The position numbers were made by a program, and so were the translations under genes. Under the pieces are notes generated by a model. That model was not told the origin of the DNA, did no database searches, and saw only the letters and a program-made list of their open reading frames with translations. 64,000 nt of DNA from Naegleria gruberi (lineage: Eukaryota). Shown piece by piece: positions 33 to 41,156 of this stretch; positions within the stretch are counted from its first letter, which is position 1, and each line of letters begins with the position of its first letter. Location of the stretch: assembly GCA_000004985.1 (NCBI GenBank), contig GG738851.1. The stretch is one strand, 5' to 3'.

Positions 33-2786
33 ATGAATGAAGTTAAATTATTTATTCAAAGTGATGCTATGAGTACTATGAGTAGTAATACTACTACCAA
101 TTTATCTTCATCTTCAAAATTACTAACGGACGATCATCATGATGATGAAAATAATTCAACATGTACAATTAATAATAATCTAAATAATACAACTACAACA
201 ATAACAAATTCAGCAACTACAACAATATCATCACAGGAAAATAATAATTTAAATATTATTGATGCATCAACAACATCATCAGAAAATTCCGAATTATTTA
301 ATGTATTACCTGATGATAATAATAATTATCAGATGCAACAGATCAAGTCGGAATCGCCTAGAGTTTCAACTGTTATTGAAACAAAAGTAACGATTTCTAC
401 TCAATCAGCAGCTGAGGATGATCATCAGGAAGAAGAGAATGATGAACATGCTATTGATGATCCAATGCAGGAATCACCAGCAAAACCACAACAGGATAAT
501 GTACAGCAGAATAATAGTAACTTGTCACCGTTTGAATTAATGATGGCCAAGTTGGAATCAAACAAGAGTGCAACAAGTAAATTAATTTTCAAAAGGAAGA
601 ATGTTGATTTGTTGGGAGAGTCAACTAGTTCGGCATTTCAACCACAGGCATCGAGCTCAATGGATAGTTCAAACCCGATTGTGGAATCGGATGGTGTTGG
701 ATTGATTGGTGAATCTCCTGGATTGGAAGATGAAGTACTGGATTGTAAAAGAACAAATGGAGTGCTACGTTGTTCATCATTTTCACAGGATACGGATAGT
801 AAAATTGGGGATGATTACGAGGAGCCATTTCAAGATCATGACAAAGCATTGGAAAAACTCTCTGAAGGATTGTCAGATGAACAAAAACGAGTTTTTGATA
901 TGGTAAAGGAGGGGAAAAGTGTTTTAATTACTGGTTTGGCTGGTGCTGGAAAATCATTCTTGATGAAACGAATTATTGCCATGTTAAAATTGATGAGGAA
1001 AGATTATGCTGCTACTGCTGCCACAGGCATTGCAGCAGTCAATATTGGAGGAGTTACTTTGCATAGTTATATAGCTTTAGCTGATACTAATTGTGCAGGA
1101 ATTTGGGGAAAGAAAATGGATATCAAAGTATTAGATACATTGATTATTGACGAAATTTCAATGATTAGTGCAGAGCTCTTTGAACTTGTTCATTTCCTAT
1201 TGACTCTTGTTTGTTATTACTCTGATATTAAGAGACGTTACGATCTTCAAAAGCAAGATAAGAAGAAATTGACAGAGTCCATGAAAAGGATTTACGATCA
1301 AGCTCTTCCATTCCATTTAATTGATGGACTTCCACTATTTGGAGGAAAGCAATTAATTCTTTCAGGAGATTTTATGCAATTAACACCTGTACCGAGAAGA
1401 AATAGTTCAGATTCAGAAAATCACATGGAAGGAAAAGATAAGCAATTCATTTTTCAATCACCACTCTTTTCCAAAATTTTTAACTCTTCTAATATTATGG
1501 TTCTCAAGCAAATATTCAGACAAGTCGATCAACCTGATTTTTTAGAGGCACTTAATGAGATTAGAATGGGAAAAGTCTCTACAAAAACCATCAATTTTTT
1601 GAAAAGATTAAAGCAAAACAGGTTAATGCCAGTGAATGGAATTTTACCTACCCTACTCTACACAACCAACAGAGATGTGGACCAGGAAAATAACACTCAT
1701 TTAGCAAACCTGTCCAGCGACAGTCACTTTTTTGAAACTGAAACAATAGATCCAAATCATAACATTCCGAACTCTACACTGAACTATATGAAACGTATAT
1801 TTGAGAACCAAATTTCTGAAAATATAACACTGAAGGAAGGAGCACAAGTAATCCTGACAAAGAATATGGACAAGTATCATGTTAATGGATCGAGAGGAGT
1901 AGTTGTAGGATTTAAAGTTTTTTCTCAATTACAAATTGAGGAGTGGCAAAAATTCAGATTTTCTCGTTTCTCATCAAAATGGACCAACGATATTGAAATA
2001 CCAAAGATCAAATTTTTCGATGGCTCTGAGTCTTACATTCCACCTGTTGTTTTTACAATGAAAGGACCAAAGATAAATGGTGCTGAAACAGAATTGTGGA
2101 GAATGGGATTTCCACTCAGGTTGGCCTGGGCCATCACTGTTCACAAATCACAAGGTATGACTTTGGATTATTGCAAAGTGGACCTCTCACAGATATTCAC
2201 TCCTGGACTTTCGTATGTGGCACTGAGTCGTGTAAAGAATGCCAAAAATTTAGAAATTGTAAATATTAACTGGAAGAAGATTGATTATGTGAATGAGGAT
2301 GCAAAAAAGTTTTACAAGAATCTGAATAACAAGGATCTCAGCTCCTCATCTCCCCTAGGAAAGAGATCTTCAGTTGGTTCTTCATCTTCTGAAATGGGCA
2401 TTGTACCAATATTCTCAACACCCAACACTAAAAAGATCAAAACAGATGATAACATGGATCTTTCATTCACTCCTCCTCAACAACCTATGGCTTCCTCTTC
2501 TTCAGCATCTACTACTCAACAACTTCAGTGTACAACAAACGTTATTTGGAGCTGGCAAAATGGAGCTAATTGGAAATTGTACGATAGAATTTCACACCAA
2601 ATCGAACAAGGTTATAGTGAGTGGACCAATGAGAATCAACCAGAATCAAAACGATTCTACTCTGTTTCAGATGCTCACTATATTGATTTCCAATTAATGA
2701 AACAAGTGAATAAGAATGAATCATGGAGAACAAGAAAGGTCAAAAGAGAGGAGCAATTCATTACTCGTCTCACCAAACAAATGTAA
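33..2786 (+). CDS. PIF1-family 5'-3' DNA helicase with an N/S/T-rich low-complexity N-terminus and a C-terminal WWE-like domain
   Basis: Single ORF of 917 aa starting at the ATG at 33. PIF1 motifs are readable: Walker A GLAGAGKSF, motif II LIIDEISM, motif III LILSGDFMQLTPV, motif V ITVHKSQGMTLD, and VALSRVKNAKNLEIVN. The C-terminus (VIWSWQNGANWKLYDRISHQIEQGYSEW...DAHYIDFQLMKQ) fits the WWE W-W..W..Y..E pattern. There is no Rep/HUH domain upstream within the window. Confidence 0.8.
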   Translation: MNEVKLFIQSDAMSTMSSNTTTNLSSSSKLLTDDHHDDENNSTCTINNNLNNTTTTITNSATTTISSQENNNLNIIDASTTSSENSELFNVLPDDNNNYQMQQIKSESPRVSTVIETKVTISTQSAAEDDHQEEENDEHAIDDPMQESPAKPQQDNVQQNNSNLSPFELMMAKLESNKSATSKLIFKRKNVDLLGESTSSAFQPQASSSMDSSNPIVESDGVGLIGESPGLEDEVLDCKRTNGVLRCSSFSQDTDSKIGDDYEEPFQDHDKALEKLSEGLSDEQKRVFDMVKEGKSVLITGLAGAGKSFLMKRIIAMLKLMRKDYAATAATGIAAVNIGGVTLHSYIALADTNCAGIWGKKMDIKVLDTLIIDEISMISAELFELVHFLLTLVCYYSDIKRRYDLQKQDKKKLTESMKRIYDQALPFHLIDGLPLFGGKQLILSGDFMQLTPVPRRNSSDSENHMEGKDKQFIFQSPLFSKIFNSSNIMVLKQIFRQVDQPDFLEALNEIRMGKVSTKTINFLKRLKQNRLMPVNGILPTLLYTTNRDVDQENNTHLANLSSDSHFFETETIDPNHNIPNSTLNYMKRIFENQISENITLKEGAQVILTKNMDKYHVNGSRGVVVGFKVFSQLQIEEWQKFRFSRFSSKWTNDIEIPKIKFFDGSESYIPPVVFTMKGPKINGAETELWRMGFPLRLAWAITVHKSQGMTLDYCKVDLSQIFTPGLSYVALSRVKNAKNLEIVNINWKKIDYVNEDAKKFYKNLNNKDLSSSSPLGKRSSVGSSSSEMGIVPIFSTPNTKKIKTDDNMDLSFTPPQQPMASSSSASTTQQLQCTTNVIWSWQNGANWKLYDRISHQIEQGYSEWTNENQPESKRFYSVSDAHYIDFQLMKQVNKNESWRTRKVKREEQFITRLTKQM

Positions 2787-2818
2787 ACTTTTACCATTCA
2801 AATGTCATTGTGAAAAAA

Positions 2819-5467
2819 ATGTATGATCATTGGGTAGGTATACCTATTCTACTACTCTCTTCACTATCATTACGCTAGAAATACGACAGAGATCAAGTCC
2901 TCCGAATAACTCTCAACAATGGCTTTTATCTACAATATGCTGATGATAAATTTAAAAAAGATAAAGATCTTGTGTTACAGGTAATTTCTCGGTACGGAAG
3001 GGGACTCGAATTCGTAGACGAATCCCTGAAAAAAGATAAGGAGGTTGTTCTTGCAGCTGTCAAACACGATGGCTTTGCACTTAAATTTGCTCATCATTCA
3101 TTGAAAAAAGATAGAACAATAGTTTGGGAAGCAATTTCACAAAATGGAAATGCTCTTCGTTTCGCTGATGCAATATTTCAAAATGATAGAGAAATTGTGT
3201 TGCGATCGGTGAGAATCGCTGGCGGAGCATTACAACATGCCAGTGATTTGTTAAAAGTGGATCATCTAGTTGTGTTTGAAGCAGTCAAACAGAGTGGACA
3301 TGCTATTCAATTTGCGCACTCATCATTTAAGAAAGATAGAGAGCTGGCATTGAAATGTTGTAAAATAGGAGATAATTCATTTGAATATGTAGATGGATCA
3401 TTCAAGAAAGAAAGAGAGTTCGTATTGGAATCTGTTAAAAGTTTTGGAACAGCTCTTTTGCATGTACATGAACCATTTAAAAAAGATAAGGAAATAGTTT
3501 TTGAAGCTATCAAACAAAGTCCAAGTGCATTCTTCAGTGCTGATGATTCATTTAGGAAGAAAGACAGAGAATTTATATTGAAAGTCGCCAAGTGTGATGA
3601 GGGTGCAATTTATTGGACAGATTATTCTATCCAATCAGAGACATTATTTGCATTTATCTACTCGTTTAGCTTGAAAGCTGATCAAAAAGAATGGATAAAG
3701 GGTCTAAATTCAACGCTATACGAAAATATCGAGAAAGCCAAGGCTGAATCAATTCAGACATGTTTATCTAGAGATGTTATTGGAATGTATTCGAACAAGT
3801 TTTCTGAGGAAGCTTATTTATTTTGTTGCTTGGCTTTACCAGACACTTATCCTAAACCTGTAGGAAATATATTCAATTTCAATCAATCGTATTCTAGTCA
3901 ATTTGTGGAAAAACTGATTATTGTACAAATTTTGAAGAGTATTAGTTCATTGGATTCAACTTGCAGCGCATCTGTCAGTAAGACAATAGATTATTACTTG
4001 TTTTTATTCAAGTTAGACAGATTTTTAGACGAATCTAATGTTAAATCAACCAATTATTCCAAGCTTGGATCTGTTGTTATGGAAATTTCATCAAAGTTTG
4101 AAACATCATATTACTCAAAAACTGATATTGGAATTGCATTATTATTTTTCAAAGATTGGATCAGCAGATTTAAACATTTCGATGATCACCGAGAGACATT
4201 AGCTCAATACAAGCAAGTTGGAGGTGATTTCTCAAAAATTATGCGAGTTATCACGCAATTTCATTACTATTCAAATAATGATTATGATGTTGTTTCAGTA
4301 CTAGGATATGGAGGCGAAGGAGCTGCTTTTAAAGCATTTAGTAAGAAATTGAATGAATTGGTGGCCATCAAAATCAAATTTGAGAAGGAAGATGAAAAAA
4401 GCAGCGAGGAAAGAATTCAATTTATCAGGAGAAATGATATTGAAGGTAAAATCAAATGCCACGATTGTAATTTGATTGATGGTTACATGTATTCTATCAT
4501 GGAATTGGGAGAAGAGACATTATCTGATTATATTGATAGAAATAGAACTTATTATCAAAATAAGCAATATTCGAAAGAGCATTTTATTGAGATTCTAATA
4601 ATATTTAACAAGATTTTACAAGCAGTCAAATCAATTCATGACCATAATATTTCACATAGAGATTTGGATCCTAAAAATGTAGTCAAAGTGAAAGATCGTT
4701 ACAAAATTATTGACTTTGATATTGCAAAGGTCATCAAAACAGGTAATTCTATCACCCTAACTGTTGGAAAATTTGCATACATGTCACCAGAAGTGTCACA
4801 CGACAATTACAGCGAGGAAATGCTCAATAACGAAGACAAGCTTTCAAATAATATTGGAAATGTCACAACATCATGTGATATCTTCTCATTGGGATGTATT
4901 TTATTGAAACTCTTAACAAACTGTAGTTTGAGATTGGATAGAGAATTCGTAACTGTTATCAACAACTTTGAGAAATATGATGGAAATTATCAATACTTTA
5001 CAGATAATGGATTTTATTTCTATTCAATATTGATTGATTTGTTAAAGGAAAAGAAATTACATCACGCCATTCAACAGACAGTGAACCAGTTCGTGGATCC
5101 TGAATGGGAAGTTAATGAAATACTTATCAAGTGTTTAATAACAATGATTCAAAAGGATCCAACTCAAAGATTAGATTGTTTCATACATAGTAATGTCCTT
5201 ACAAAGGTAATCGATTTTTTAAAAGGTGAAAACAACATGACACTTAACCAAATTCTCAAAGATATGGAAAATTATAAGGAAATTAATGAATTGAAGGATA
5301 TTCCACAAATTATTGAAGAAAATGAGCAGCTTAAGAATGAAAATGTTGAGCTGAAGAGAATGATCGAAAATCTAGAAGAGAAAAGTCGAAAGGATAAGGA
5401 AGAAAATCAAATGCTAATGAAGAAGTTAGAGGAAATGGAGAAACGAACCAAAGAGCTTGAAAAATAA
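2819..5467 (+). CDS. DUF4116-like tandem-repeat protein fused to a protein-kinase-like domain and a C-terminal coiled coil. Model: join(2819..2833, 2879..5467).
   Basis: The long ORF has no in-frame ATG. Its frame stays open back to 2879 and still encodes the repeat there (YADDKFKKDKDLVLQ). Upstream lie ATG TAT GAT CAT TGG (MYDHW), then GTAGGT...CGCTAG; a 45-nt GT..AG intron (2834..2878) joins these in phase 0. About nine repeats of ~37 aa follow (K-DREVVLeAVKqnG-AL-fA---LKKDR). Kinase motifs are VAIKIKF, HRDLDPKNV and DFD (instead of DFG), plus an odd Gly loop LGYGGEGAAF. The C-terminus is a K/E-rich coiled coil. Confidence 0.55.
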
Positions 5468-5596
5468 ATTCATAAACTGGAATAAATAGAGAATTCAATC
5501 AAATTTCTAATAATAACTAAAGGGTATTTAAAATAATAATTATGACAACAAATTGGTGAACCGTGCTATCACGTTTTTTAATAACACAACAAAAAA

Positions 5597-6364
5597 ATGA
5601 ACAAAATCTCAAGAGGGTTAATCACCACAGGTAACAAGAGATTCTTCTCATCCACTTGCATGAACAAAAGTAAACCAATTGTTGAATTCAAAGAAATTCA
5701 GAAGGGACAAATATGGTTAATTGACAATTTATTTTCTGAAGAGGAATGCAAATCCTATATTGAATTGGCTGAATCGCAAGGATTTAATGATGCACCAGTC
5801 ACAGTTGGTGCTAATACTTTCAAAATGATGACAGATTACAGAAATAATAAGAGAGTAATTTTGGATGATCCTAACTTAGCTCAACAAATCTACACGAAAG
5901 TGAAAGATTTCGTTCCAGAATTTGCAAGTGAACTGAATGTCAATTCAAGAAAGATCAATACAGAATTCTTTCAAAAGTGTGGAGTGAACGAAAGATTCAG
6001 ATTTTACAGATATACCTCAGATGAGTATTTTAAAGCTCACTTTGATGGAAACTTTGCTAGAAACAACGTAGAGTGCACTCTTGAGAATGGAAAGACCTAC
6101 CTCTGTGAAGAATCTTCCTTCATAACCATGCTCATCTATTTAAACACTTTAGAGAAGGGAGGTGAAACAAATTTTGTGAATCCAGGTGGAGAAGAAAGAA
6201 TTCTTCACTCTGTGAATCCAAAAACAGGAAGAGTGCTATTGTTTGTCCATCGTTTGTTGCATGAAGCTGAACCAGTTGGAGAACCTTGGCAATTCAAATA
6301 TGTGTTGAGAACAGATATCATGTATAGAAGACCAATGGGTCTATTTTCATCATTTCATTGGTAA
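5597..6364 (+). CDS. 2-oxoglutarate/Fe(II)-dependent oxygenase (prolyl-4-hydroxylase-like)
   Basis: 255-aa ORF from an ATG. The HxD...H facial triad is present as KAHFDGN (H-x-D) and LFVHRLLHEAEP (distal His), and RTDIMY carries the 2OG-binding Arg. The N-terminus is basic and presequence-like. Confidence 0.6.
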   Translation: MNKISRGLITTGNKRFFSSTCMNKSKPIVEFKEIQKGQIWLIDNLFSEEECKSYIELAESQGFNDAPVTVGANTFKMMTDYRNNKRVILDDPNLAQQIYTKVKDFVPEFASELNVNSRKINTEFFQKCGVNERFRFYRYTSDEYFKAHFDGNFARNNVECTLENGKTYLCEESSFITMLIYLNTLEKGGETNFVNPGGEERILHSVNPKTGRVLLFVHRLLHEAEPVGEPWQFKYVLRTDIMYRRPMGLFSSFHW

Positions 6365-7117
6365 ATGAATAAAGCTTACCTAATAAACTTGAATCAGACA
6401 ATAATTGGAAAGAGATATCAAGTCAGCCCATCAAGGACAATTAGACACAATTCTGCTACCAAGGTCTAATTCAATTTCATAATGTCAATATTGATGACAT
6501 AAATAGTGAAGAATCGCATATCCACTGCCTATCTTAATTACGTTCATTGTTTCGGTCAATATTCAAACTGAGATTTGACCAGGTTCACTCAAACTATTTC
6601 GCTGATTCTCATTATTGTGGCCAAGATATCTGTCATGAATCATGTGGCATATTGCACCAGAGGAAATTTAGCAAAACCTCAAACTAATAAAATGTCCAAA
6701 CAGGTGGTCAATAATGATGCTAACAATATTAGTGGCACTACCACATGCATGCAAACTTTCGCATGTATCACTTCGAGAAATACACAAGAGGAGAGTTCAG
6801 AGCTCTTCAAGTTTTCTCCTCATTTGAAGTCTTTCAGATATTTTCAAGATGCTGAACGCATGTTGAATAATTATTTCCAATTTTACATGCGGAAGGTATT
6901 GGAGTTGTGTTATTTTTTTTCGTTAAGATTTTTAAAATTGGCGGGAATTTGTTTAAGGTTGTTTGCTTATTAGTGCGAGCATGTAAAAGAAACACATGTT
7001 TCAAATTCCTTAACAATTTAAACAATAGAATCGGTAAGCTAGTTTTCATTCACCTATCAAGATTAAATTTGTTTTATTGTTTTTGGGCACAGTTTGAACA
7101 ATTTTCTCTTGCATCGA

Positions 7118-8006
7118 TCATTCGACACCAATCATTTGATTATCAAGTTTCTTATCGTGCTGCTTCTTAGACTGTTGAAGAAGCATCAGAATTTGATTAT
7201 ACATTTCTTCAAGCTTCTTATCCCATTCCTCTTGTTTCTCTTGCTTATCCCATTCTTCTTGTTTCTTATCAAGATTATTAACACTTTCAACAACCTTATC
7301 GAGACCCAACAGGATTTGTGAATTTTGTTTTAATAGGTCGAGTAAAAGTTCTCTTTCCATTTTTTTCACTAGCTCAGGTGATTCGTAATTGCTGTAGAAA
7401 TTCCAATTTATTTGATAGCATTGATTAAGGGCAAAACAACTTTTGTACGAAACAATTTTAAACATTAGAATCATTTTCGAATACTTGTCTCTTTCCCAAT
7501 TTTGCTCTTCCAAATTCAATAACATATCGAATAGATTTAATCTGATTCAATAGCAATAGAATGAAAAACATTCCAATTGCAGCATATCCAAAATCGAGAT
7601 ATCTAGTGCAAATCACCAATCCAATAAAATTCAACAAACTGTAAATAAACATGCCAAGTGGATCTTTGGTAGCCATCGAATAGAAACCACAGCCAATTCC
7701 AATAATCACCAACATGGCAATCCACAATGGAGTTCCAATCCAAAATACAGAAAAGATCAATACCAATCCAATCAGCAACAATTGGAATGAAAACATGTTT
7801 GCCAAATTTTGCCATTGTACAGCAGATGCTTGATTAGTATATTGTTTTTTCTGAATGGAATCTATAAAGTGTTCAATGTTTTTAGAGAACATGTCATAGA
7901 GTGGTGTTCTTGTTGTTTCTTGTTCTTGTGGAGCTGTTGTTGTTCTTGTTGTGGTTTCGTCCAACTGTTCAGAGTTGAGTGGTTGATGCGCTTCGGAATT
8001 GTTCAT
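7118..8006 (-). CDS. Hypothetical 4-TM membrane protein with a C-terminal K/E/Q-rich coiled coil. Tentative model: complement(join(7118..7372, 7485..8006)).
   Basis: Two ORFs (7458..8006 and 7118..7525) overlap by about 65 nt in different frames. A 112-nt GT..AG intron (7373..7484; donor CAA|GTATTC, acceptor CACCTGAG|CTAGTG) joins them in frame to give a 258-aa protein. It has a Thr-rich N-terminus and four hydrophobic segments. The tail has a direct repeat (EEWDKQEKQEEWDKK) encoded by duplicated DNA. The splice is my reconstruction only. Confidence 0.4.
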
Positions 8007-8399
8007 TGTTGCTTGCTTTCGTTTTTTTTCTGTTTGGAATAATCCAAATGCCTATATATTTGGATATTTGTAGGATGGAAAAAAAACGTGTTTTTGTTGT
8101 GGTTTGGTGGATGGCATTTTGCGATTGGTTAATTTTTTTTTGTAAACTTTTTTAATATTGTAATTCTTTAATTCTTTGAATGATATTGAATTCAAACATT
8201 TAAAACTTTTGTAATGCAACCTTAGAGAAATTACAAAGTGTTGTTTGTCCTCAATTGAGTGGCAATGTGAACTTGAATTTCAATCTCAATCTTGATCTAA
8301 AAATAAATTTCAAGAAAATTGCAAATAAAAACGAGAACAATTTCAATAAACAACTTTTTCAAAAACAAAAAAACAAAACAAAACAATTAACTAGGAAAA

Positions 8400-8984
8400 A
8401 TGCACCCGGAAAAAATTACTGGAAGATTAGGAATTGCAACCAATCAAACAATTAAGAGAAATGCCTACATTCGTATACAGGAAAAGGCAGTTTCTCATTA
8501 TCAAATTGATGGAGAACAAGTTGCCTTCTCATTGAATAGACACAAAGCATGGGAATTGTTGGAAAAGCAACAAGAAATTGAAGAATCATATGACAATGTG
8601 TCAAGAAACAATGATCAAGAAAATAGACTAACTAAAAAGAAACATTTCCAACAACATCTCAATAAGAGTAAACATGACAATCGATTGCAACAAAAGGAAT
8701 TGGCAAAACTCAAGAAGAATTTAGAAAAGAAACCAATTCTATCCGAATCAACAGAAGAAGAAGCAGAACCAAAGATTGTGAAACATTTAATTGGAAGCAA
8801 AAATTATCCGAGAGGAGTTTCACTGTTCCCTGAAAATGGAATTGTCATTTCAGAAGTTATGAGTCGAGCACAAATTTACAAATTGAGTCAACACAGAGAT
8901 CGTCAACGTCATTTGGGTGTTTCAGGTAATCAGAAATCAAGACATCAGAAAAAAGCTGAATTTGAAAAGAGTATCTTTTTGTAA
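8400..8984 (+). CDS. Hypothetical K/E/Q-rich protein
   Basis: 194-aa ORF from the ATG at 8400 with no recognisable domain. Composition looks like coding sequence rather than AT-rich spacer. Confidence 0.3.
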   Translation: MHPEKITGRLGIATNQTIKRNAYIRIQEKAVSHYQIDGEQVAFSLNRHKAWELLEKQQEIEESYDNVSRNNDQENRLTKKKHFQQHLNKSKHDNRLQQKELAKLKKNLEKKPILSESTEEEAEPKIVKHLIGSKNYPRGVSLFPENGIVISEVMSRAQIYKLSQHRDRQRHLGVSGNQKSRHQKKAEFEKSIFL

Positions 8985-9121
8985 AGATTACAATTGTACG
9001 TATAGCATTCGAGAGTAGGCAATAAAGTCATGATTTTGTTCCACTGTGGAACCTGATCCAATTTCCATTGTAAAATCATTTTACTGAACTTGAAAGTCAA
9101 TCAAAAAAAAATAACACAATA

Positions 9122-10604
9122 ATGAATGCAGGATTATTTTCTTCCGGGGCTTTTAATTCCGAATCTTTTAAAGATGTTTTGAATTGTGGTAAGAGATTGC
9201 CCTCCAATTCTTCCATTACATTCGAGGGAATTATGAAGGACTACTTTTATCAGACTGGTATGATGAAGGTATCTAATAAATTATTGGAAACTGCCTATTC
9301 GATTGCTGTTGATCATGATCCGATCAGTTTGGAAAGGCAAATTCACTTGGCATTAGGATTGCACAGTTGTAAAGATGGGCTGAATGAAAGAAGGGATTTG
9401 AATTTAGTTGTAGGTTGTTTAATTATATTATATTCATACATATATAAATATATATAATTATATATTATAATTATGCAATATATTTAATAATTATTGTAAA
9501 CTAAAGATTGTATTGGATATTAGTGGATCAATGGGATCTGCCATGTCTAGCAAGGAAAAAACCAAAATGCAAGTGGCCAATCAAGTAATTTGTGAAATAA
9601 TTGACAATTTGAGAGAATTTGAAAGATTGGGAATTGTTTTATTCGATCACAAGGCCGAAACTTTACTTCCATTAACAATCGTTCAAGATTTAGATAAGAA
9701 ATCACTCAAGGAAACTGTTCTAAAGATTGAAGAGCAGGGATCTACAAATTTTGAAGCTGGTATGCAAAGAGGAATCGATTTATTTTCCACTCTAGATTCG
9801 TCTGATTTATCCAATTCTAATAGAATCATTTACTTGACAGATGCTTGTCCAAACGTGGGTGGAACTGACACTCTCGATATTCTCACAAAAGATGCAAACT
9901 CTGGTCCGTACAATATCTTTTCAACTTTTATTGGAATTGGTTTAGATTTCAATTCGGATATTGTGGAAGAATTGACTCGAGTTCGTGGTTGTAATTATTT
10001 CTCTGTTAGATCAACTGAGGATTTTACAAAGATTTTGAATCAGGATTTCAATTATATTGTAACACCGATTTGTTACAATGTCAAGTTGAGTTTGGAATGT
10101 GAAAATTATGAAATTGAAAAATGTTTTGGAACAAATATGGCGGGAGAATCAACTGGCGAGATTATGAAAGTTGATACTTGTTCTGCAAGTCAATTGGATG
10201 AAAGAGGTGTTAAGGGAGGGATGGTTTTATTAAGATTGAAAGCAAAGAATGATTTTAAAGGAGAATCGAATGTGAAATTAACACTTTCCTATGAAACTAT
10301 TGAAGGAAAGAAGGTCAGAGATGAGAAGCAAGTTAAAATTGAATCAAGTGATCAACTTGGAAATTATTACGAAACTAATGGAATTCGAAAGGCCATTGCA
10401 TTGGTTAGATATGTTGAACAGGTGAAGGGTTATTTGATGGAAATGAAGAATGGGGAAACAAAACATGAAGGATGGAATTCAAAATTCAATCAATTATTGA
10501 ACCATTTCACCAATGAAGTGCAAGAAATTGGAGACGAAACCATGAACGAACATGTTGACTCTCTTAAGAAATTAATTAAATTTTCCACTGTTGTTAGAAA
10601 ATAA
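9122..10604 (+). CDS. von Willebrand factor A (vWA/MIDAS) domain protein. Model: join(9122..9409, 9507..10604).
   Basis: Exon 1 ends ...RDLNLV before GTAGGT. A 97-nt intron that is almost pure AT ends ...CTAAAG. Exon 2 resumes IVLDISGSMGS, restoring the vWA beta1-MIDAS motif (vlDiSGSM). Later MIDAS residues are STNFEAGMQ and the LTDA region. Confidence 0.65.
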
Positions 10605-11167
10605 ATTCCTGTACAATTCAACTATGTAGCATCTCAATCACCAACTATCTAGAACTCACTTTCCAAACATTCAACATGTTAGAATTGAGTAAACTGATTT
10701 GCTTTATTGAAGAACAATGTAAGGCGTTGGTTACACTAAATCAGTTCAATGAAATACCCACTCTGTAGTTTTAATTGCAAATCTGTTCAACAGTTTCCTT
10801 TATTTATTAATTAAAATCTATAAAAGTAAATTTAAATACTTTTGCATTTGGAAATTCTAACAATATCTTTGAAAGTCAATTTAGATCTCAACTCTTTTCA
10901 TGGTGTTGCTTGACATGAACCATCATGAAGAGGTAAGTTTAGTTTACAATTTTATGAAATTTAGTCTAGTTTGAAAGTTGTATCAAGCGTCAGCTCTAAT
11001 CGTCCAAGAAAACTGACATTGTCTCTTGAACTTATGGTGTTTTCTAATACTTTTGTATGCTTGATAAGGATTGATGAACTGGTTGTAAGATTAACTTTCG
11101 TATAAATAGCAAGTAGAGTGGCTCATTAAGATATTCAAACAAACCAAAAAAAACAATACAAATAACA

Positions 11168-12505
11168 ATGATGAAAACTGTTGCTTTCAAGCTTGCAATC
11201 TTGCTTGTCTTGGCCTTGATTCTTTCTATTGGCTCAATTCAAGTCGAATCCTTTAATCTTTCGAATACTTTAACAAAGGTCATTAGCTTTGACTTTAAGA
11301 ATACCTATCTAGGCACCATGTTGAGAAACAAACTCTACGGCTCCACTGTTATTCAACACTCCATTCCTTCTTCCATCACTAAGAAATTCACTCAACAAAG
11401 ACTTCTCCAATTAAGAGCCATGACTGACAGAGATTGTGACCATTCTCATCATGGAAACAATCAAGATTCCTCCCTGATCTGCCAACAAGAATTCAACTTC
11501 CATTTCAATTCTGTCAATGGAGTTGTCAAGGGCAAGAGATGGATGCAAGATTTACTCTCCAAAATTGGAAATACACCAATTACCAAATTGAAAATTCCAG
11601 CCACTCACGATTCGGCCACCTACAACGTCTCAACAAGTCAAGATTACAGTTCTGACACTCTATCTGATCCAAGTATGCTATTAATTCCACAATTGGTTCA
11701 AATCTTCCAAGCTTATGGTTTGAACACTCAACGTGTTAAGCAATTTGTTGCTCCTTGGTTCAAGAATCAAGAATGTTCAATTTATCAACAGTTGAATCAT
11801 GGTATTAGACATTTGGATTTGAGGGTTTGTAAGCAAAGTACTGGAACAACCGCTGAAACAAAGTATGTTGCTTGTCATGGAATTGTCAGTGTGACAATTG
11901 CAAATGTCTTGAGACAAGTTAAACAATTCTTGAATGAAAATAAGAAGGAAATTGTTACTTTGGATTTCAATCACTTGTATGGATTTTCCACACAAAATGA
12001 TCATTTGGAATTCGTTAACATGAGTAGAACCATTTTAGGAAGTGACTTGTTGATTAATCCTTCCCAATTCACTACAAATAGCACACTCAATCAAATTTTC
12101 ACAACCAGTCAAAGAGTATTCTTCTATTATGTCCACACTGCAACTGTAATTAACTATGGCTCTCAATTTAATCTCTTCCCAAGTTGGAAAATTGACACTC
12201 GTTGGGCCAACAAGCAAGATATGACATCTCTCAAAACTGAAATTCTTGTCGAGTTGAACTCTAGAACTGATTTCCGATATGGATTCGTCTCCCAAATTGT
12301 AATGACTCCAGATTTGAATATGATGGTCAATGGATTATTCGAATCTCCAAAATCAGTGAAGGAATTGGCAACAATGAATTATGGAGTGATTCCAACATGG
12401 ATTTCGAATGATCTTCCAGATTCTAAGATGAATGTTGTTAATGCTGATTATTATCACTTGTTTGGTGACGATTTCGTTTCTGCAGTTATTGCACAAAACT
12501 TGTAA
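11168..12505 (+). CDS. Secreted PI-PLC X-domain (PLC-like phosphodiesterase) protein
   Basis: N-terminal signal peptide (MMKTVAFKLAILLVLALILSIGS). The X-box catalytic motif is KIPATHDSATY (PGTHDS-like), and the second catalytic His is in HGIRHLDLRV. Confidence 0.6.
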   Translation: MMKTVAFKLAILLVLALILSIGSIQVESFNLSNTLTKVISFDFKNTYLGTMLRNKLYGSTVIQHSIPSSITKKFTQQRLLQLRAMTDRDCDHSHHGNNQDSSLICQQEFNFHFNSVNGVVKGKRWMQDLLSKIGNTPITKLKIPATHDSATYNVSTSQDYSSDTLSDPSMLLIPQLVQIFQAYGLNTQRVKQFVAPWFKNQECSIYQQLNHGIRHLDLRVCKQSTGTTAETKYVACHGIVSVTIANVLRQVKQFLNENKKEIVTLDFNHLYGFSTQNDHLEFVNMSRTILGSDLLINPSQFTTNSTLNQIFTTSQRVFFYYVHTATVINYGSQFNLFPSWKIDTRWANKQDMTSLKTEILVELNSRTDFRYGFVSQIVMTPDLNMMVNGLFESPKSVKELATMNYGVIPTWISNDLPDSKMNVVNADYYHLFGDDFVSAVIAQNL

Positions 12506-12578
12506 ATAAACTAGAGCACAATTTTGATAAAAAGTATCTATCCTATTTTCTGCATTGTTAGAGAATGAAATTATTGAA

Positions 12579-14045
12579 TTATCGAGAATTGATTTTTTCA
12601 ATCATTTGTATGAGGAAAGTACGATCCTTCAAGAGGTAATTGTACTCGTCTCTTGTAATAAAATTATAGGTCATTAATGCTTCCATGATAATTTCTCTAT
12701 CGTGCTTAAAGTAAGTTCCACATTCAAAGAATGCAGATCCATTAAGTTTCACTGCTTCCAGTACGAATTCTCTGTCCTGTTTCACAATTTCTGGGCATTC
12801 CAATATAGCAAGAGTATTGTGTTTGAAATATGCCAAAATGACATCTCTGTCCTGCTTTAACTCGTCAGCAGCATATTCAGCAACTCTTGGATTAATATCG
12901 ATTGCCTCCAAAATAAACTCTTTTTCTTTGATCAAATCTGTTGAATAGGTTATAGCTCTGGGATTGATTTTGATAGCTTTCTTGATGATTTCAACATCTG
13001 ATTTTAAACTTGGAAGAGCAGCATAACCCAGAGCATACCCATTAGAGGAAACTGCCAAGTAAACCAAATCTCTATCTCTCCTTAAACTTTCGTGAGCATA
13101 TTTGAAAGCGCATCCCTCTTGAGTAATAGCTGCTGTCACAATTTCCACATCCTGTTTGAGTGATTCGTCAGCATCCTTTAGTGCATCTCCACATTGTTTT
13201 ACTGCCTCTAATACTATCTCTTTGTCCTTTCTAAATTGATGAGGAACTCTACCAAGCACTTTTCCATTTCTTTTAACGGCTTGAAGAGCAAATTCTCTGT
13301 CGTTCTGTATTTCTGGACTTGCCAGTAGAAATCCTGCAACATAATTAGGTCCAATTGATTCCAAGAGTATTTCCCTATCTTGTTTAACATATTTTGCGGC
13401 AAATTGAATAGAAGTTCCATCAAGTTTGACAGCATTTAACAAAATTTCTCTATCTTTTTTCATATTTTCTGGAATGGTCATTATTGTAATAATTGGGTTC
13501 TTTTTGACAGCCTCAAAAACTACCTCTCTATCATTTTTCAATTCCTTGCTGCAATGTGAAAAAGCACTCATCGAATTTCTGATAGCTTTCAACACTAATT
13601 CTCTATCCGACCTAAGATCTTCATTTGCAAACTCCAAGGCATCTCCACATCCATTCTCAATAGCCAATCGTACCAATTCTTGATCGTTTCGCAACTCGTT
13701 TACCATCAGTTCAAAAGCTCTCCCATTCACTCTCAAAGCCTTCATCACAAATTCTCGATTTTTCTTCAATTCATTACTTGCATCATAAATTCTACAAAAA
13801 TCCAATCGGATAGCCTTCAGCATAATCTCTTCATTGTTTCTCATACACTCAGAGATGAATAAATTATCCAACTTCATCCTCTCCAATGCCAGTCCATACA
13901 TGATCGGATCAAATTCGAATAGTTGGGCAATTTCGGAAAAGAAGGGAATTGCCTTGAGAGCCTTTCTTTCCAGGTCATATTTTTCTCGTAAAATTCGTGA
14001 TGAACAGTTTGTATCTAAAAGCAAAATTGTGCAATGTGTTGTCAT
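12579..14045 (-). CDS. DUF4116-like tandem-repeat protein (paralog of the repeat region in 2819..5467)
   Basis: 488-aa ORF from the ATG at 14045. It is built almost entirely of the same ~37-aa repeat (KNDREVVFEAVKKNP.., KQDREILLESI.., RKDKEIVLEAVKQCGDAL..). Confidence 0.6.
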   Translation of the reverse strand: MTTHCTILLLDTNCSSRILREKYDLERKALKAIPFFSEIAQLFEFDPIMYGLALERMKLDNLFISECMRNNEEIMLKAIRLDFCRIYDASNELKKNREFVMKALRVNGRAFELMVNELRNDQELVRLAIENGCGDALEFANEDLRSDRELVLKAIRNSMSAFSHCSKELKNDREVVFEAVKKNPIITIMTIPENMKKDREILLNAVKLDGTSIQFAAKYVKQDREILLESIGPNYVAGFLLASPEIQNDREFALQAVKRNGKVLGRVPHQFRKDKEIVLEAVKQCGDALKDADESLKQDVEIVTAAITQEGCAFKYAHESLRRDRDLVYLAVSSNGYALGYAALPSLKSDVEIIKKAIKINPRAITYSTDLIKEKEFILEAIDINPRVAEYAADELKQDRDVILAYFKHNTLAILECPEIVKQDREFVLEAVKLNGSAFFECGTYFKHDREIIMEALMTYNFITRDEYNYLLKDRTFLIQMIEKINSR

Positions 14046-14629: not shown

Positions 14630-16018
14630 ATGGTTAGAAGTGATTTGAAAGTAAAGTGGAAATTGAGAAATTCCGGACAAGTAACAATAAGAGCAGGACA
14701 TTGTGCTGCCAATATTCCTGGAACTCCACTTATGTATGTCTTTGGAGGAAGTAATAATCACTTAGGTGATCACATACCTTCAAAGGAATTTGATGTCTAC
14801 AATTGCAATACAAACTCTTGGAGAAGAGCAGGTATTCATTCCGATGTACCTGAAGAGGATGCTAAAATTCCAAGACCAAAACCAGTAGTTGGATCTTCAC
14901 TTGTTGGTGTTGAGAGAGGACAAATGATTGGAGAATTAAGTTATGCCACTAGTACTATTGCAGAAAATCAAGAACCACACTCTGCTCTTATATTGTATGC
15001 TGGTTGGAGTAGTGATTCATTGATAAATGATCTTTGGAAATTTAATTGCAAAACAGAAAAGTGGATTAATCTTACAGATAAGCAAAAAGGATCTATTCCA
15101 TCACTTCGTTCAAATCATAGTGCTGTTGTTATTGATAATCAAATGCTTGTTTTTGGAGGAATAGGAGAAGAATTAGAAGATTTAAAGCAAGATATGTACA
15201 TTTTGGATTTACAGACATTGCATTGGAGGAAAGTTGCTCTTGAAGAAAGTGACGAAAGACCACCAGCAAGTAGATCACATGCTTGTTGTGTACATAGAAA
15301 GAGTATGATTTTATTTGGTGGAGGTACTGATAAGGTGTGCTTTAATCACTTGTATAGATTTGATCTCGAAGTGGAAAGATGGACTAAAATCAAACCAAAT
15401 AAGAGTGAAGAATTGAAAGAAGCTGAACGTGATCCAACAAAACCAATTCCTTCCAACTTGGTGTTAATAGAACCTGAGCCAAGAATGTTCCCTAATGCAG
15501 TTATATATGACACTGATAGAATGTTTTTATTTGGAGGTAGAAATGGTAAACAAAAGATTAATGAAGTGTGGCAATTTGACTTTTTGAATAATCAATGGAA
15601 TTTAATGCAGGTTGGTGACTATTCTGAGGATGATAATAGCACTCTTGTACTAAATGATGATGATATGGCTGGTGTTGAAGAAACTAATGAACCATCCTTC
15701 CCTCCAGTTCAAGCACAACATGCTATGCAAAATGATGACATGACAGATGCTTCTCCATTACCATCCCCTCTTACTCCATTCTTAAAGAAACATCCAATCA
15801 AGCCAACTCCTAGAACAGGTGGAAATATGACAGTTGTTACAACTGGTAAAACAATTGGACCAAAGTTTGACAAGATTCTTGTCTTTGGAGGTAATGATAC
15901 CAAAGGAAAATTGAACGAAGTTTGGGAATTAATTGTCAATCAAAGAACATATACTAAGAATCTCGAAAAGTTGGTTAATTCATCACTTTTTTCAGATATC
16001 GACGTAAAGTTATTGTAA
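14630..16018 (+). CDS. Kelch-repeat beta-propeller protein
   Basis: 462 aa. Repeated kelch signatures: ...FGGsnn.., SAVVIDNQMLVFGGIG, CCVHRKSMILFGGGTD, DRMFLFGGRNG, ILVFGGNDTKG. Each is followed by a W-containing strand. Confidence 0.7.
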   Translation: MVRSDLKVKWKLRNSGQVTIRAGHCAANIPGTPLMYVFGGSNNHLGDHIPSKEFDVYNCNTNSWRRAGIHSDVPEEDAKIPRPKPVVGSSLVGVERGQMIGELSYATSTIAENQEPHSALILYAGWSSDSLINDLWKFNCKTEKWINLTDKQKGSIPSLRSNHSAVVIDNQMLVFGGIGEELEDLKQDMYILDLQTLHWRKVALEESDERPPASRSHACCVHRKSMILFGGGTDKVCFNHLYRFDLEVERWTKIKPNKSEELKEAERDPTKPIPSNLVLIEPEPRMFPNAVIYDTDRMFLFGGRNGKQKINEVWQFDFLNNQWNLMQVGDYSEDDNSTLVLNDDDMAGVEETNEPSFPPVQAQHAMQNDDMTDASPLPSPLTPFLKKHPIKPTPRTGGNMTVVTTGKTIGPKFDKILVFGGNDTKGKLNEVWELIVNQRTYTKNLEKLVNSSLFSDIDVKLL

Positions 16019-16170: not shown

Positions 16171-16689
16171 TTAACCAGTTCTCAAGATGATGTGAACTCC
16201 AGAGTCAGTTGAAACAATATCACTCAATTCTCCAATCTTTAAACGGAATGAAGCATCTTCGAATGGTTTTTGCATTTGACCACGTCCAAAGAAGCCAAGA
16301 TCACCTCCTCTCTTTGCACTACTACAATCACTATGGACGGAGGCTAATTCTTGGAATTTTTCAGCCATATCTTCAGCATTGAAAATATCCTCTCTCAATC
16401 CTTCCAATATTTCCGTAGCATCCTTTTTCGATCGTGTAATATTCTTTTCCTTCCATGATGATGGATTCCTAGATTGATTATGTTTAATCAACAAGTGGCT
16501 AACCTTGACTTGCTCACCATCATCATTATTATTATTAGTATTATTATTATTGACGAGTGGTTTGGCTGATTTTGTTGGTTTTTCCCATTGTGTTTCGTTG
16601 GTAAATTTGTTGATGTAGTAGAAAACGCCTGGTCTGCTTGAGGATTCTTTAACTCTCCAGCCCTCAGGTACAGAAGGAAGATTAGACAT
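16171..16689 (-). CDS. Pin1/Ess1-type peptidyl-prolyl cis-trans isomerase (WW domain + parvulin rotamase)
   Basis: 172 aa. WW domain [31 protein letters not shown], then an Asn-rich linker, then the parvulin domain ([18 protein letters not shown]..., [37 protein letters not shown]). Confidence 0.85.
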
Positions 16690-20856: not shown

Positions 20857-21150
20857 CTCATTGAGAGAACATGATTTCAAATATTTTTTCTGTGCCGTAA
20901 AAACTCCGCATAGAGAACTTCCATCATCAAAATTGAAATTGCAAATTTGCCTTCTTTGTTCACCATCACCATTTATTCTAACAACATAATTTACAAGAGA
21001 GTTGGAGGCAGCTTACTTGAAAATCTAAAAAACCAAATGTTGCTCATGATGGTCACTACACACAGTAATAAGAATCATCAATAGTATCGACCAAAACGGC
21101 TCCTCAGTTCGCAATTGCTTGGAGGACATAAAAAAACACAATCGGAAAAA

Positions 21151-40847: not shown

Positions 40848-41156
40848 CAAAGACTTTTTTTTGTAGTTTGAAAAGAAGAGAAATTGGCGCCATTTTAAGA
40901 CAGCAGAAAAAACGAAACTCAAGAATTGGTTGTCTAGTCAAATTTTCAGATTGTCATGCAACAAATATCATTGGAAAGATAATAGTTTTCTTGATCCTAT
41001 CCAAAATGTTTCAAGCAAGTATTATCTTCTTCCTCTTGATGAAATAAAATTGATTAAAATTATTTTAAAGTTTTTTTGTTATTTTGTGATTGTTGTTGTT
41101 GTGAATTTTCTTCATCGTTAATAAATTAATTCCCTCTAGTATATATTTACTAAAAT

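What the first reader, a model, noticed from the sequence alone, without database searches (positions are those of the whole stretch)
2819..14045. Two DUF4116-like repeat proteins, one with an atypical kinase domain (DFD, odd Gly-loop), flanking a 7-kb segment in convergent orientation
Both proteins are built of the same ~37-aa repeat (K.DRE(V/I)VL.AVK.NG.AL..A...LK.DRE). The + copy adds a kinase-like domain with intact VAIK and HRDLDPKN but DFD for DFG and a degenerate glycine loop, plus a coiled-coil tail. It could be a pseudokinase or an unusual active kinase. This repeat is an under-characterised family, and the paired arrangement suggests local family expansion.
Basis: partly seen in the sequence, partly recalled or inferred. 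Interest (0 to 1): 0.5.

Follow-up and report, generated by a model that had tools for sequence, protein, structure and literature searches.

The report
Naegleria repeat proteins, one rewired kinase
Two nearby genes of the amoeba Naegleria gruberi encode proteins built from a 25-residue helical repeat of unknown function; one also carries a protein-kinase domain in which a normally essential active-site lysine appears to have moved to a neighbouring loop, possibly an alternative way to build a working kinase.

Summary
The window is Naegleria gruberi NEG-M. Gene A (2819-5467, +, one 45-nt intron, 867 aa) has ten DUF4116 units, an orphan helical domain, a protein-kinase domain and a coiled-coil-like tail. 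Gene B (14045-12579, -, 488 aa) has 16 DUF4116 units.

- The repeat period is 25 aa, not ~37.
- The glycine loop (GYGGEG) fits GxGxxG.
- HRDLDPKN is not intact. It carries Asp where the catalytic-loop Lys (PKA K168) should be.

That Asp always occurs with Lys in place of the P+1-loop Thr (PKA T201), the residue that normally hydrogen-bonds K168. All 14 domains of a monophyletic N. gruberi clade show the pair. Their Naegleria relatives keep K+T but already have DF[D/E] or DLD. Bacterial PknB-like kinases show the same pairing independently (S/A + K). DFD alone is known in active kinases (MNK1/2, plant AGCVIII).

The closest solved kinase is TTK/Mps1. The repeat array models confidently as an alpha-solenoid with no close solved relative.

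The convergent pairing means little. The two arrays are only 30-35% identical, DNA similarity is negligible, and the genes between them are unrelated.

Best reading: a scaffold-tethered, probably active kinase with a relocated lysine. A pseudokinase is the main rival.

The parts
2819..2833 (+). Gene A exon 1 (MYDHW)
   Evidence: This is the only in-frame ATG upstream of the repeat array. The N-terminus resembles paralogue P0001: 'EWADRKYVLEAV' against 'HW|KYDRDQVLRI'.
2834..2878 (+). Gene A intron, 45 nt, GT..AG, with an in-frame TAG
   Evidence: Sequence read. A near-identical metagenome strain (L001) has a 1-nt indel inside it, as expected for non-coding DNA.
2879..5467 (+). Gene A exon 2, including the TAA stop; the spliced product is 867 aa
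   Evidence: Open reading frame.
2879..3649 (+). DUF4116 array of gene A: ten 25-aa units (aa 6-262), consensus KKDREiVLeavKq.G.ALqfADdSF
   Evidence: Pfam PF13475 E 8e-67. Period 25. Own unit HMM E 2e-82. Consensus.
3650..4282 (+). Orphan helical middle domain (aa 263-473), shared with Naegleria paralogues only
4283..5221 (+). Protein-kinase domain (aa 474-786), TTK/Mps1-like
   Evidence: Pkinase E 6e-26. Best solved relative TTK, E 2.6e-15.
4301..4330 (+). Glycine loop LGYGGEGAAF (GxGxxG intact)
4361..4372 (+). VAIK; the beta3 Lys is K503
   Evidence: Invariant in 13 paralogues.
4655..4678 (+). Catalytic loop HRDLDPKN. D600 is the catalytic Asp, D602 replaces the catalytic-loop Lys (PKA K168), and N605 is kept.
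4712..4720 (+). DFD in place of DFG (D619 replaces the Gly)
4766..4792 (+). P+1 loop GKFAYMSPE. K636 replaces the conserved Thr (PKA T201, TTK T686), seven residues before the APE Glu.
5297..5464 (+). C-terminal coiled-coil-like tail (aa 812-867)
   Evidence: One heptad register has 48% hydrophobic residues at a/d positions against 22% elsewhere. 48% of residues are charged. Only weak Pfam hits to coiled-coil families. No dedicated predictor was run.
12579..14045 (-). Gene B: 488-aa stand-alone DUF4116 protein (coordinates include the stop)
   Evidence: ORF. PF13475 E 5e-148.
12621..13838 (-). DUF4116 array of gene B: 16 units (aa 70-475)
   Evidence: Own HMM gives 16 hits. Unit starts listed. 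AF2 model pLDDT 86.8, pTM 0.78; each unit forms three short helices of about 10, 6 and 4 residues.

Best explanation
SHOWN
- Gene A encodes a four-part signalling protein of a Naegleria-restricted family. The parts are: (i) an N-terminal alpha-solenoid of ten 25-residue DUF4116 units; (ii) a family-specific helical domain; (iii) a Ser/Thr-type kinase domain whose closest solved relative is TTK/Mps1; (iv) a coiled-coil-like tail.
- The kinase keeps every residue normally used to call a kinase active: the GxGxxG loop, beta3 Lys K503, HRD Asp D600, Asn N605 and DFG Asp D617.
- Three positions around the phosphate site are changed: catalytic-loop Lys to Asp (D602), P+1-loop Thr to Lys (K636), and DFG Gly to Asp (D619).
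- In canonical kinases the first two positions are hydrogen-bonded to each other.

INFERRED
- The enzyme is active. K636 reaches back from the P+1 loop and supplies the positive charge that the catalytic-loop Lys normally offers to the ATP gamma-phosphate and catalytic Asp. D602 anchors K636. This is a side-chain swap, loosely comparable to the relocated beta3 Lys of WNK kinases.
- The DUF4116 solenoid serves as a protein-binding or targeting module.
- The tail clusters or dimerises the kinase, as clustering does for Mps1 activation.
- Gene B is a stand-alone DUF4116 scaffold. Its position 7 kb away in convergent orientation is incidental.
For: IDENTITY
- Neighbouring Pin1 and Kelch proteins are exact matches to N. 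gruberi NEG-M entries.

FAMILY
- At least 13 N. gruberi paralogues share the middle domain and kinase.
- Only 11 clusters among 1.84 billion representatives reach E<=1e-30. Every one that carries a name is Naegleria.

ACTIVE-SITE CONSERVATION
- 81 columns are invariant across 13 paralogues that are only about 30-70% identical. They include G481, G483, G486, K503, H598, D600, D602, N605, D617, K636, E643 and activation-loop S629/T631.

COUPLING OF THE TWO SUBSTITUTIONS
- All 14 domains with HRDLDPxN have Lys at the T201 position.
- All 8 related Naegleria-family domains with HRD[LI]K..N have Thr there.
- No intermediate state was seen.
- In an NJ tree the 14 HRDLDPxN domains group together to the exclusion of all K+T domains; a 12-member inner clade has bootstrap 95.

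INDEPENDENT RECURRENCE
- Among 375 kinase domains fetched, all 19 with Lys at T201 lack Lys at K168. Six of these are bacterial PknB-like kinases (HRD[LI][SA]PDN ... GK..Y..PE), and the two that carry a name come from Acidobacteriota and Planctomycetota.

LITERATURE
- The T201 hydroxyl bonds D166 and K168 (PMC2604893).
- Distances are 2.4-3.5 A in seven kinase groups, and single mutations of this Thr inactivate 45 of 46 kinases tested, including TTK T686 (PMC12141571).
- K168 binds the gamma-phosphate (PMC9704751).
- DFD occurs in active MNK1/2 and AGCVIIIa kinases.
- Mps1 is activated by clustering or dimerisation (PMC5863767).

SOLENOID
- AF2 pLDDT 86.8.
Against: - No biochemical, structural or expression data exist.
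- Within Naegleria the swap arose once, so the '14 of 14' coupling is one evolutionary event plus retention.
- The net charge of the site falls by two units (K to D, G to D, T to K), which could equally abolish ATP gamma-phosphate binding.
- According to the survey in PMC12141571, no human Ser/Thr kinase is listed with Lys at the P+1 Thr position.
- Gene A has no near-identical entry in the N. gruberi reference protein set.
- Its ATG lies only 33 nt after the PIF1 stop codon.
- In a 98.5%-identical metagenome strain the orthologue carries a frameshifting 22-nt insertion and a premature stop.
- The function of DUF4116 is unknown. 'Targeting module' is an analogy.
Confidence: 0.5

Rival explanations
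1. Gene A and its clade are pseudokinases. Loss of the catalytic-loop Lys and of the P+1 Thr, plus an acidic residue after DF, abolish phosphotransfer. The D602-K636 pair is only a structural salt bridge that locks the activation segment. The protein acts as a nucleotide-binding scaffold or allosteric partner, tethered by its DUF4116 array and coiled coil.
For: - K168 is described as indispensable for catalysis (PMC9704751).
- Substituting the P+1 Thr inactivates 45 of 46 kinases tested (PMC12141571).
- The site becomes two charge units more negative.
- One clade member, P0114 domain 1, has gone further, to NFN, and is fused to a second, canonical-looking kinase domain. This is a typical pseudokinase-kinase tandem.
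Against: - The three residues whose loss conventionally defines pseudokinases (beta3 Lys, HRD Asp, DFG Asp) are invariant. So are the Gly loop and the metal-binding Asn, across 13 paralogues only about 30-70% identical.
- Pseudokinases usually erode these residues.
- The same K168-loss / T201K pairing recurs in bacterial PknB-like kinases that also keep all catalytic residues.
- DFD is compatible with activity.
Confidence: 0.3
2. Gene A, and perhaps gene B, is a redundant and decaying member of a large paralogous family. It would be unexpressed or on its way to becoming a pseudogene, so its motif oddities have no present function in this copy.
For: - Neither gene has a near-identical protein in the NCBI/UniRef/EukProt N. 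gruberi sets, although their neighbours do.
- The intergenic gap before gene A is 33 nt.
- The orthologue in a 98.5%-identical strain (L001) has a 22-nt insertion and E444*.
- Between the two strains gene A shows 8 non-synonymous against 4 synonymous changes. PIF1 next door shows 2 against 6.
Against: - In this window gene A is an uninterrupted 862-codon exon and gene B a 488-codon ORF, in a 33% GC genome where stops are frequent.
- All family-invariant residues are intact in gene A.
- The 8:4 against 2:6 contrast is not significant (Fisher p = 0.17).
- The L001 lesions could be metagenome assembly errors.
- Missing annotation may simply reflect repeat masking.
Confidence: 0.12
3. The two DUF4116 genes form a meaningful unit: either a recent local (inverted) duplication or the boundaries of a 7-kb cassette.
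For: Only their proximity and convergent orientation. Elsewhere in the genome five kinase paralogues share one 573-kb scaffold, so clustering does occur in this family.
Against: - Protein identity between the A and B arrays is 30-35% in any register. That is no higher than B against bacterial or metagenome proteins.
- The best inverted DNA match is 50 nt at 76%.
- B lacks the middle domain, the kinase and the tail.
- The genes in between are unrelated and show no mobile-element signature: a 2OG-Fe(II) oxygenase, a membrane protein, a VWA protein and a PI-PLC-X protein.
- No further copy exists in the 64 kb.
Confidence: 0.03

Closest known systems
DUF4116 (Pfam PF13475) repeat proteins
   Same: Both genes match far above threshold. 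Tandem helical units give an alpha-solenoid, as predicted earlier by trRosetta for this family (PMC8078820) and by AF2 here. The same repeat occurs in Naegleria spp., Symbiodinium and Chrysophaeum. It also occurs in Legionella, Parachlamydiaceae, Saganbacteria and Mycoplasmopsis.
TTK/Mps1 dual-specificity kinase
   Same: It is the best solved match (E 2.6e-15, against 4e-12 for the next family). Mps1 proteins are the first named non-Naegleria hits. Both have a GxGGxx-type Gly loop and a long insert between APE and subdomain IX. The overall layout is also similar: N-terminal helical-repeat module, then linker, then C-terminal kinase. In Mps1 the N-terminal module is a TPR domain (my knowledge, and PMC5863767).
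   Different: Mps1 has DFG, HSDLKPAN and a P+1 Thr (T686) that is autophosphorylated for activation. Gene A has DFD, HRDLDPKN and Lys at that position. It carries DUF4116 instead of TPR, and adds an orphan middle domain and a coiled-coil tail. Orthology was not established.
WNK kinases (relocated catalytic lysine)
   Same: Conceptual parallel only, from my knowledge of the family. An invariant active-site Lys is missing from its canonical position and is supplied from another element of the same domain, with activity retained.
   Different: In WNK it is the beta3 (VAIK) Lys that moves to the Gly loop. Here the beta3 Lys is intact, and it is the catalytic-loop Lys that is lost, with a Lys appearing in the P+1 loop. 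No sequence relationship was found.
Tyrosine kinases (HRDLAARN + P+1-loop Pro)
   Same: This is another lineage in which the catalytic-loop Lys and the P+1 Thr are replaced together (Lys replaced by an Arg, Thr by Pro) while catalysis is kept (PMC12141571). Gene A itself has a Lys at the D+4 position, where my own knowledge of HRDLAARN places the tyrosine-kinase Arg.
   Different: The D+4 residue is Gln or Asn in most paralogues, so it cannot be the family's general solution. The P+1 residue is Lys, not Pro. There is no TK-specific similarity: PK_Tyr_Ser-Thr scores only 32 bits against 92 for Pkinase.
MNK1/2 and plant AGCVIIIa kinases (DFD motif)
   Same: DFD replaces DFG in kinases known to be active.
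   Different: They keep the catalytic-loop Lys and P+1 Thr, as far as I know. They are not among the close sequence matches.
Bacterial PknB-like kinases with HRD[LI][SA]PDN ... GK..Y..PE (e.g. UCF80288 Acidobacteriota, NRA95953 Planctomycetota)
   Same: They show the same pairing: no Lys at the K168 position and Lys at the T201 position, with all other catalytic residues kept.
   Different: Ser or Ala rather than Asp at the K168 position. Normal DFG. Different kinase lineage (best PDB match PknB, E 8e-44). No DUF4116. Also uncharacterised.

Membership tests
DUF4116 (PF13475) | Match to the Pfam HMM above the gathering score | tested here: met
   A scores 221 bits and B 480.9 bits, against a cut-off of 24.9.
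DUF4116 (PF13475) | Tandem array of short helical units forming an alpha-solenoid | tested here: met
   Period 25 aa. 10 and 16 units. AF2 model pLDDT 86.8, three helices per unit.
Eukaryotic protein kinase (Pkinase, PF00069) | Match to the HMM above the gathering score over the whole domain | tested here: met
   91.8 bits against 31.7; profile positions 1-252 of 263.
Eukaryotic protein kinase, predicted active | Beta3 Lys, HRD Asp and DFG Asp present, plus the Gly loop and catalytic-loop Asn | tested here: met
   K503, D600, D617, G481/G483/G486 and N605 are all invariant in 13 paralogues.
Eukaryotic protein kinase, canonical Ser/Thr active site | Catalytic-loop Lys (HRDxKxxN) and P+1-loop Thr/Ser that hydrogen-bonds it | tested here: not met
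   D602 and K636 occupy these positions.
Eukaryotic protein kinase, canonical Ser/Thr active site | DFG glycine | tested here: not met
   DFD at aa 617-619. The whole Naegleria family has D[FL][DE].
Eukaryotic protein kinase | Phosphotransfer activity | not testable with these tools
   Needs an in vitro kinase assay.
Pseudokinase (conventional definition) | Loss of at least one of beta3 Lys, HRD Asp or DFG Asp | tested here: not met
   All three are present and invariant.
TTK/Mps1 | Closest kinase family by sequence | tested here: met
   TTK is the best PDB hit at E 2.6e-15, with the next family at 4e-12. Mps1 proteins are the first named outgroup hits.
TTK/Mps1 | Orthology (groups inside Mps1 in a kinome-wide tree, or reciprocal best hit) | not tested
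   The N. gruberi proteome or genome was not available as a search target. The only tree used Mps1 as an outgroup.
TTK/Mps1 | N-terminal TPR domain and a P+1-loop Thr (T686) autophosphorylation site | tested here: not met
   No TPR hit; the N-terminus is DUF4116. The T686 equivalent is K636.
Sel1/TPR/HEAT/ARM repeats | Profile match, or close structural match of the array | tested here: not met

The most novel reading that the evidence does not exclude
The N. gruberi clade represents an undescribed, catalytically competent design of the protein-kinase active site. In it, the phosphate-contacting Lys of the catalytic loop has been relocated to the P+1 loop (K168D + T201K in PKA numbering). The same solution has arisen independently in bacterial PknB-like kinases (K168S/A + T201K). 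This would be a second 'WNK-like' case of lysine relocation, and a natural compensated double mutant at two positions that are individually intolerant to change.
Probability: 0.4. Interest if true: 0.65.

Novelty: new variant of a known kind. Interest (0 to 1): 0.45.

Why it matters
Kinase activity is routinely predicted from a handful of invariant residues. The catalytic-loop Lys and the P+1 Thr are treated as near-universal in Ser/Thr kinases, and each is intolerant to single substitution.

A clade that swaps the two and then expands to at least 14 copies, plus an independent bacterial recurrence, would give a natural experiment on how the phosphate-transfer site can be rebuilt. It would also refine the rules used to label kinases as 'pseudo'.

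It further gives the uncharacterised DUF4116 repeat a concrete context. The repeat is fused repeatedly to kinases in protists. It is also present in amoeba-associated bacteria such as Legionella and Parachlamydiaceae.

The pairing of the two genes in this window has no evident significance.

Tried and rejected
- **Local duplication or inverted repeat of A and B.** Rejected.
- **Sel1/TPR/HEAT assignment of the repeat.** Rejected.
- **Tyrosine-kinase-like rescue by the Lys at D+4 (HRDLDPKN).** Rejected as a general mechanism, because most paralogues have Gln or Asn there.
- **DFD as evidence of a dead kinase.** Rejected.
- **P0114 as a K+T 'outgroup'.** My first regex picked its second kinase domain. 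Its first domain is a clade member with HRDLDPKN/NFN/RK.
- **Genomic context of paralogues and of the reference annotation.** The look-up of encoding contigs has no record for P0002 or for the Kelch neighbour. The paralogue cluster on the 573-kb scaffold and the reference gene calls here could therefore not be inspected.
- **Literature.** The string 'HRDLDP' occurs in no paper of the library. 'Naegleria kinome' gave nothing on this family.
- **Not achievable.** Model coordinates (to measure the K636-D602 distance), a genome-wide DUF4116 copy count, and dN/dS between paralogues, because their DNA is not held.

Full report
**Source and setting.** The window is nuclear DNA of the amoeboflagellate Naegleria gruberi NEG-M. 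Two neighbouring ORFs are exact matches to XP_002681178 and XP_002681032 on a 693,645-bp scaffold: Pin1-type rotamase (16171-16689, -) and a Kelch protein (14630-16018, +). GC content is 31-37% throughout. Genes are closely packed, with short introns.

**Observation check.**
- Gene A begins at ATG 2819. After five codons there is a 45-nt GT..AG intron (2834-2878) containing an in-frame TAG. The frame then runs open from 2879 to the TAA at 5465-5467, giving 867 aa.
- The splice is inferred from three things. No other in-frame ATG precedes the repeats. The spliced N-terminus resembles that of paralogue P0001. A near-identical strain has a 1-nt indel inside the proposed intron.
- Gene B is an uninterrupted 488-codon ORF on the minus strand (14045 to 12579).
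- Pfam gives DUF4116 (PF13475) at E 8e-67 for A and 5e-148 for B, and Pkinase at E 6e-26 for A. No Sel1, TPR or other repeat family is hit.
- The genes are convergent, with 7.1 kb between their 3' ends.

**Corrections to the observation.**
- The repeat period is 25 residues. BLOSUM autocorrelation peaks at 25/50/75 in A and at 25/51/76 in B, and motif spacing is 25-26.
- A has ten units (aa 6-262) and B has sixteen (aa 70-475).
- The glycine loop LGYGGEGAAF fits GxGxxG. It aligns with GSGGSS of human TTK, and its glycines are invariant in the family.
- HRDLDPKN is not 'intact'. Its fifth residue is Asp where Ser/Thr kinases have Lys.

**The repeat.**
- An AlphaFold2 model of gene B, built on a 63-sequence alignment, is confident (mean pLDDT 86.8, pTM 0.78; above 90 over aa 70-340). 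Each 25-residue unit forms three short helices of about 10, 6 and 4 residues, stacked into an alpha-solenoid.
- The array is therefore a solenoid without a close solved relative. This agrees with an earlier contact-based prediction for the family (PMC8078820).
- Homologues come from Naegleria spp., Symbiodinium, Chrysophaeum and marine transcriptomes. They also come from Legionella, Parachlamydiaceae, Saganbacteria, Mycoplasmopsis and many metagenome contigs.
- DUF4116 arrays are fused to several unrelated, canonical kinases in either order, for example P0232, P0015, P0073 and P0246. The repeat-plus-kinase architecture is therefore recurrent rather than unique.

**The kinase.**
- The closest solved structures are human TTK/Mps1 (E 2.6e-15; next family 4e-12). 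The first named non-Naegleria hits are plant and fungal Mps1.
- Shared features include the GxGGxx loop and a long insert between APE and subdomain IX.
- Gene A belongs to a family that shares a roughly 210-residue helical middle domain, the kinase and a coiled-coil-like tail. At least 13 N. gruberi paralogues exist, at 37-69% identity. More distant members occur in N. lovaniensis and on unnamed contigs.
- An exhaustive HMMER search of 1.84 billion representatives finds only 11 clusters at E<=1e-30.

**The coupled substitution.** Motifs were tabulated domain by domain.
- 14 N. gruberi domains have HRDLDPxN (P0111 reads HGDLDPQN), then DF[D/E] (NFN in one), then (G/R)K..YM.PE.
- 8 related domains have HRD[LI]K..N, then D[FL][D/E] in seven (P0330 domain 1 has lost the motif), then GT..Y..PE. 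These are N. lovaniensis P0119, P0120 and both domains of P0330; N. gruberi P0332 and P0114 domain 2; and unnamed P0331 and P0333.
- The Mps1 outgroups have DFG, Lys and Thr.
- In PKA numbering, G186 to D/E therefore came first, across the whole family. K168D and T201K then appeared together, with no intermediate state seen. In an NJ tree the 14 HRDLDPxN domains group together to the exclusion of all K+T domains, and a 12-member inner clade has bootstrap 95.
- Because this is a single origin, the 14-of-14 coupling counts as one event. Both residues have nevertheless been retained in paralogues that have diverged to about 30-70% identity. The retained set also includes the Gly loop, K503, D600, N605, D617 and activation-loop S629/T631, among 81 invariant columns.
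All 19 with Lys at the T201 position lack Lys at K168. Six of them are bacterial PknB-like kinases with HRD[LI][SA]PDN, normal DFG and GK..Y..PE. The two that carry a name are from Acidobacteriota and Planctomycetota, and they align column for column with PknB.

**Why these two positions matter.**
- In PKA and MARK the P+1-loop Thr/Ser hydrogen-bonds the catalytic Asp and the catalytic-loop Lys (PMC2604893).
- The distances are 2.4-3.5 A in representatives of seven kinase groups. [quoted passage not shown] Mutating it inactivated 45 of 46 kinases tested, including TTK T686 and PKA T201. Tyrosine kinases replace the pair jointly, with Pro and Arg (PMC12141571).
- K168 binds the ATP gamma-phosphate (PMC9704751).
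- DFD on its own is found in active MNK1/2 and plant AGCVIIIa kinases.
- The string HRDLDP occurs in no paper of the searchable library.

**Mechanism proposed.**
- Shown: the domain architecture, the family, the motif states, their coupling, and the retention of all other catalytic residues.
- Inferred: K636 substitutes spatially for the lost catalytic-loop Lys, with D602 as its anchor, so the enzyme remains active. D619 adds a carboxylate near the metal site, as in other DFD kinases.
- Also inferred: the DUF4116 solenoid targets or recruits partners, and the tail (heptad signal) clusters the kinase. Mps1 is likewise activated by clustering or dimerisation (PMC5863767).
- In Mps1 the P+1 Thr is itself an activating autophosphorylation site. 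Replacing it with Lys removes that control point.
- I put this reading at about 0.5.

**Rivals.**
- Pseudokinase scaffold, about 0.3. It is supported by the intolerance of both positions to single changes, the more acidic site, and a clade member that has decayed further (P0114 domain 1, NFN). It is opposed by the strict retention of the residues that pseudokinases typically lose.
- Decaying or unexpressed copy, about 0.12. Neither gene A nor gene B has a near-identical protein in the NCBI/UniRef/EukProt N. gruberi sets, although the neighbours do. Gene A starts 33 nt after the PIF1 stop.
- Also bearing on this rival, a 98.5%-identical metagenome contig (L001) carries a 22-nt insertion and E444* in the orthologue, with 8 non-synonymous to 4 synonymous changes. 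PIF1 shows 2 to 6; Fisher p = 0.17. In this window both ORFs are intact.
- Meaningful gene pair or cassette, about 0.03. This is refuted as far as it can be tested.

**The arrangement.**
- The two arrays are 30-35% identical in any register. This is no closer than gene B is to bacterial proteins.
- The best inverted DNA match is 50 nt at 76%.
- A unit HMM finds no third copy in the six-frame translation of the 64 kb.
- The intervening genes are unrelated: a 2OG-Fe(II) oxygenase, a membrane protein, a Lys/Glu-rich protein, a VWA protein and a PI-PLC-X protein.
- Family clustering does occur elsewhere. Five kinase paralogues lie on one 573-kb scaffold. That does not apply to this pair.

**Comparison and novelty.**
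- Both proteins are members of DUF4116. Gene A is a member of the protein-kinase superfamily, closest to Mps1/TTK. It is not shown to be an Mps1 orthologue, and it fails Mps1's TPR and T686 features.
- The active site fails three canonical features: the catalytic-loop Lys, the P+1 Thr and the DFG Gly. It passes all features used to call a kinase active.
- I file it as a new variant of a known kind. The paralogues are in databases as 'predicted protein', and the repeat is a named DUF. The K168/T201 swap and its bacterial recurrence appear not to have been described in the library searched.
- Interest is 0.45. This is a clear, testable structural hypothesis of moderate surprise to kinase specialists, resting so far on sequence alone.

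Noticed in passing
window 33-2786 (+): A 917-aa PIF1-family helicase carries a C-terminal WWE domain (PF02825, E 2.6e-6), a module best known from PARPs and E3 ligases. Its stop codon lies only 33 nt before gene A's ATG.
   Followed up: no
L001 1-3634 (ENA ERZ929261 k127_180527), equivalent to window 1439-5045: A metagenome contig is 98.5% identical to the window. In it the gene A orthologue has a 22-nt local duplication (a frameshift near window position 3050) and CGAGAG>CTATAG, giving E444* before the kinase domain. PIF1 has only in-frame indels and mostly synonymous changes.
   Followed up: partly
window 2819-5467 and 12579-14045: Neither gene has a near-identical entry in the NCBI/UniRef/EukProt N. 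gruberi protein sets, although adjacent genes do. Both seem to be unannotated in the reference, perhaps because of repeat masking.
   Followed up: partly
proteins P0410, P0412, P0463, P0467, P0418 (domain 2), P0465: These bacterial PknB-like kinases have HRD[LI][SA]PDN plus GK..Y..PE: no catalytic-loop Lys, and Lys at the P+1 Thr position, with normal DFG. The two that carry a name are MAGs from Acidobacteriota and Planctomycetota. In five of the six the protein also carries a canonical kinase domain; the odd one is the N-terminal domain in P0410, P0412, P0463 and P0467 and the C-terminal one in P0418.
   Followed up: partly
proteins P0114 (N. gruberi) and P0330 (N. lovaniensis): These are tandem-kinase members of the family. 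P0114 domain 1 has HRDLDPKN with NFN (DFG Asp lost), followed by a canonical-looking second domain. P0330 domain 1 has lost the DFG motif.
   Followed up: partly
window 9122-9457 and 9513-10604 (+): The VWA-domain ORF starts with TTG and is preceded by an ATG-initiated 111-aa ORF on the same strand. It is probably one gene split by a short intron.
   Followed up: no
window 59222-60760 (+): A 513-aa ORF has a weak MACPF/perforin-domain match (E 2.8e-6).
   Followed up: no
window 18418-20880 (-), 21115-23184 (+), 38826-40922 (-), 49078-52347 (-): Several large ORFs (690-1090 aa) have no Pfam match at E<=1e-5. They are presumably lineage-specific genes.
   Followed up: no
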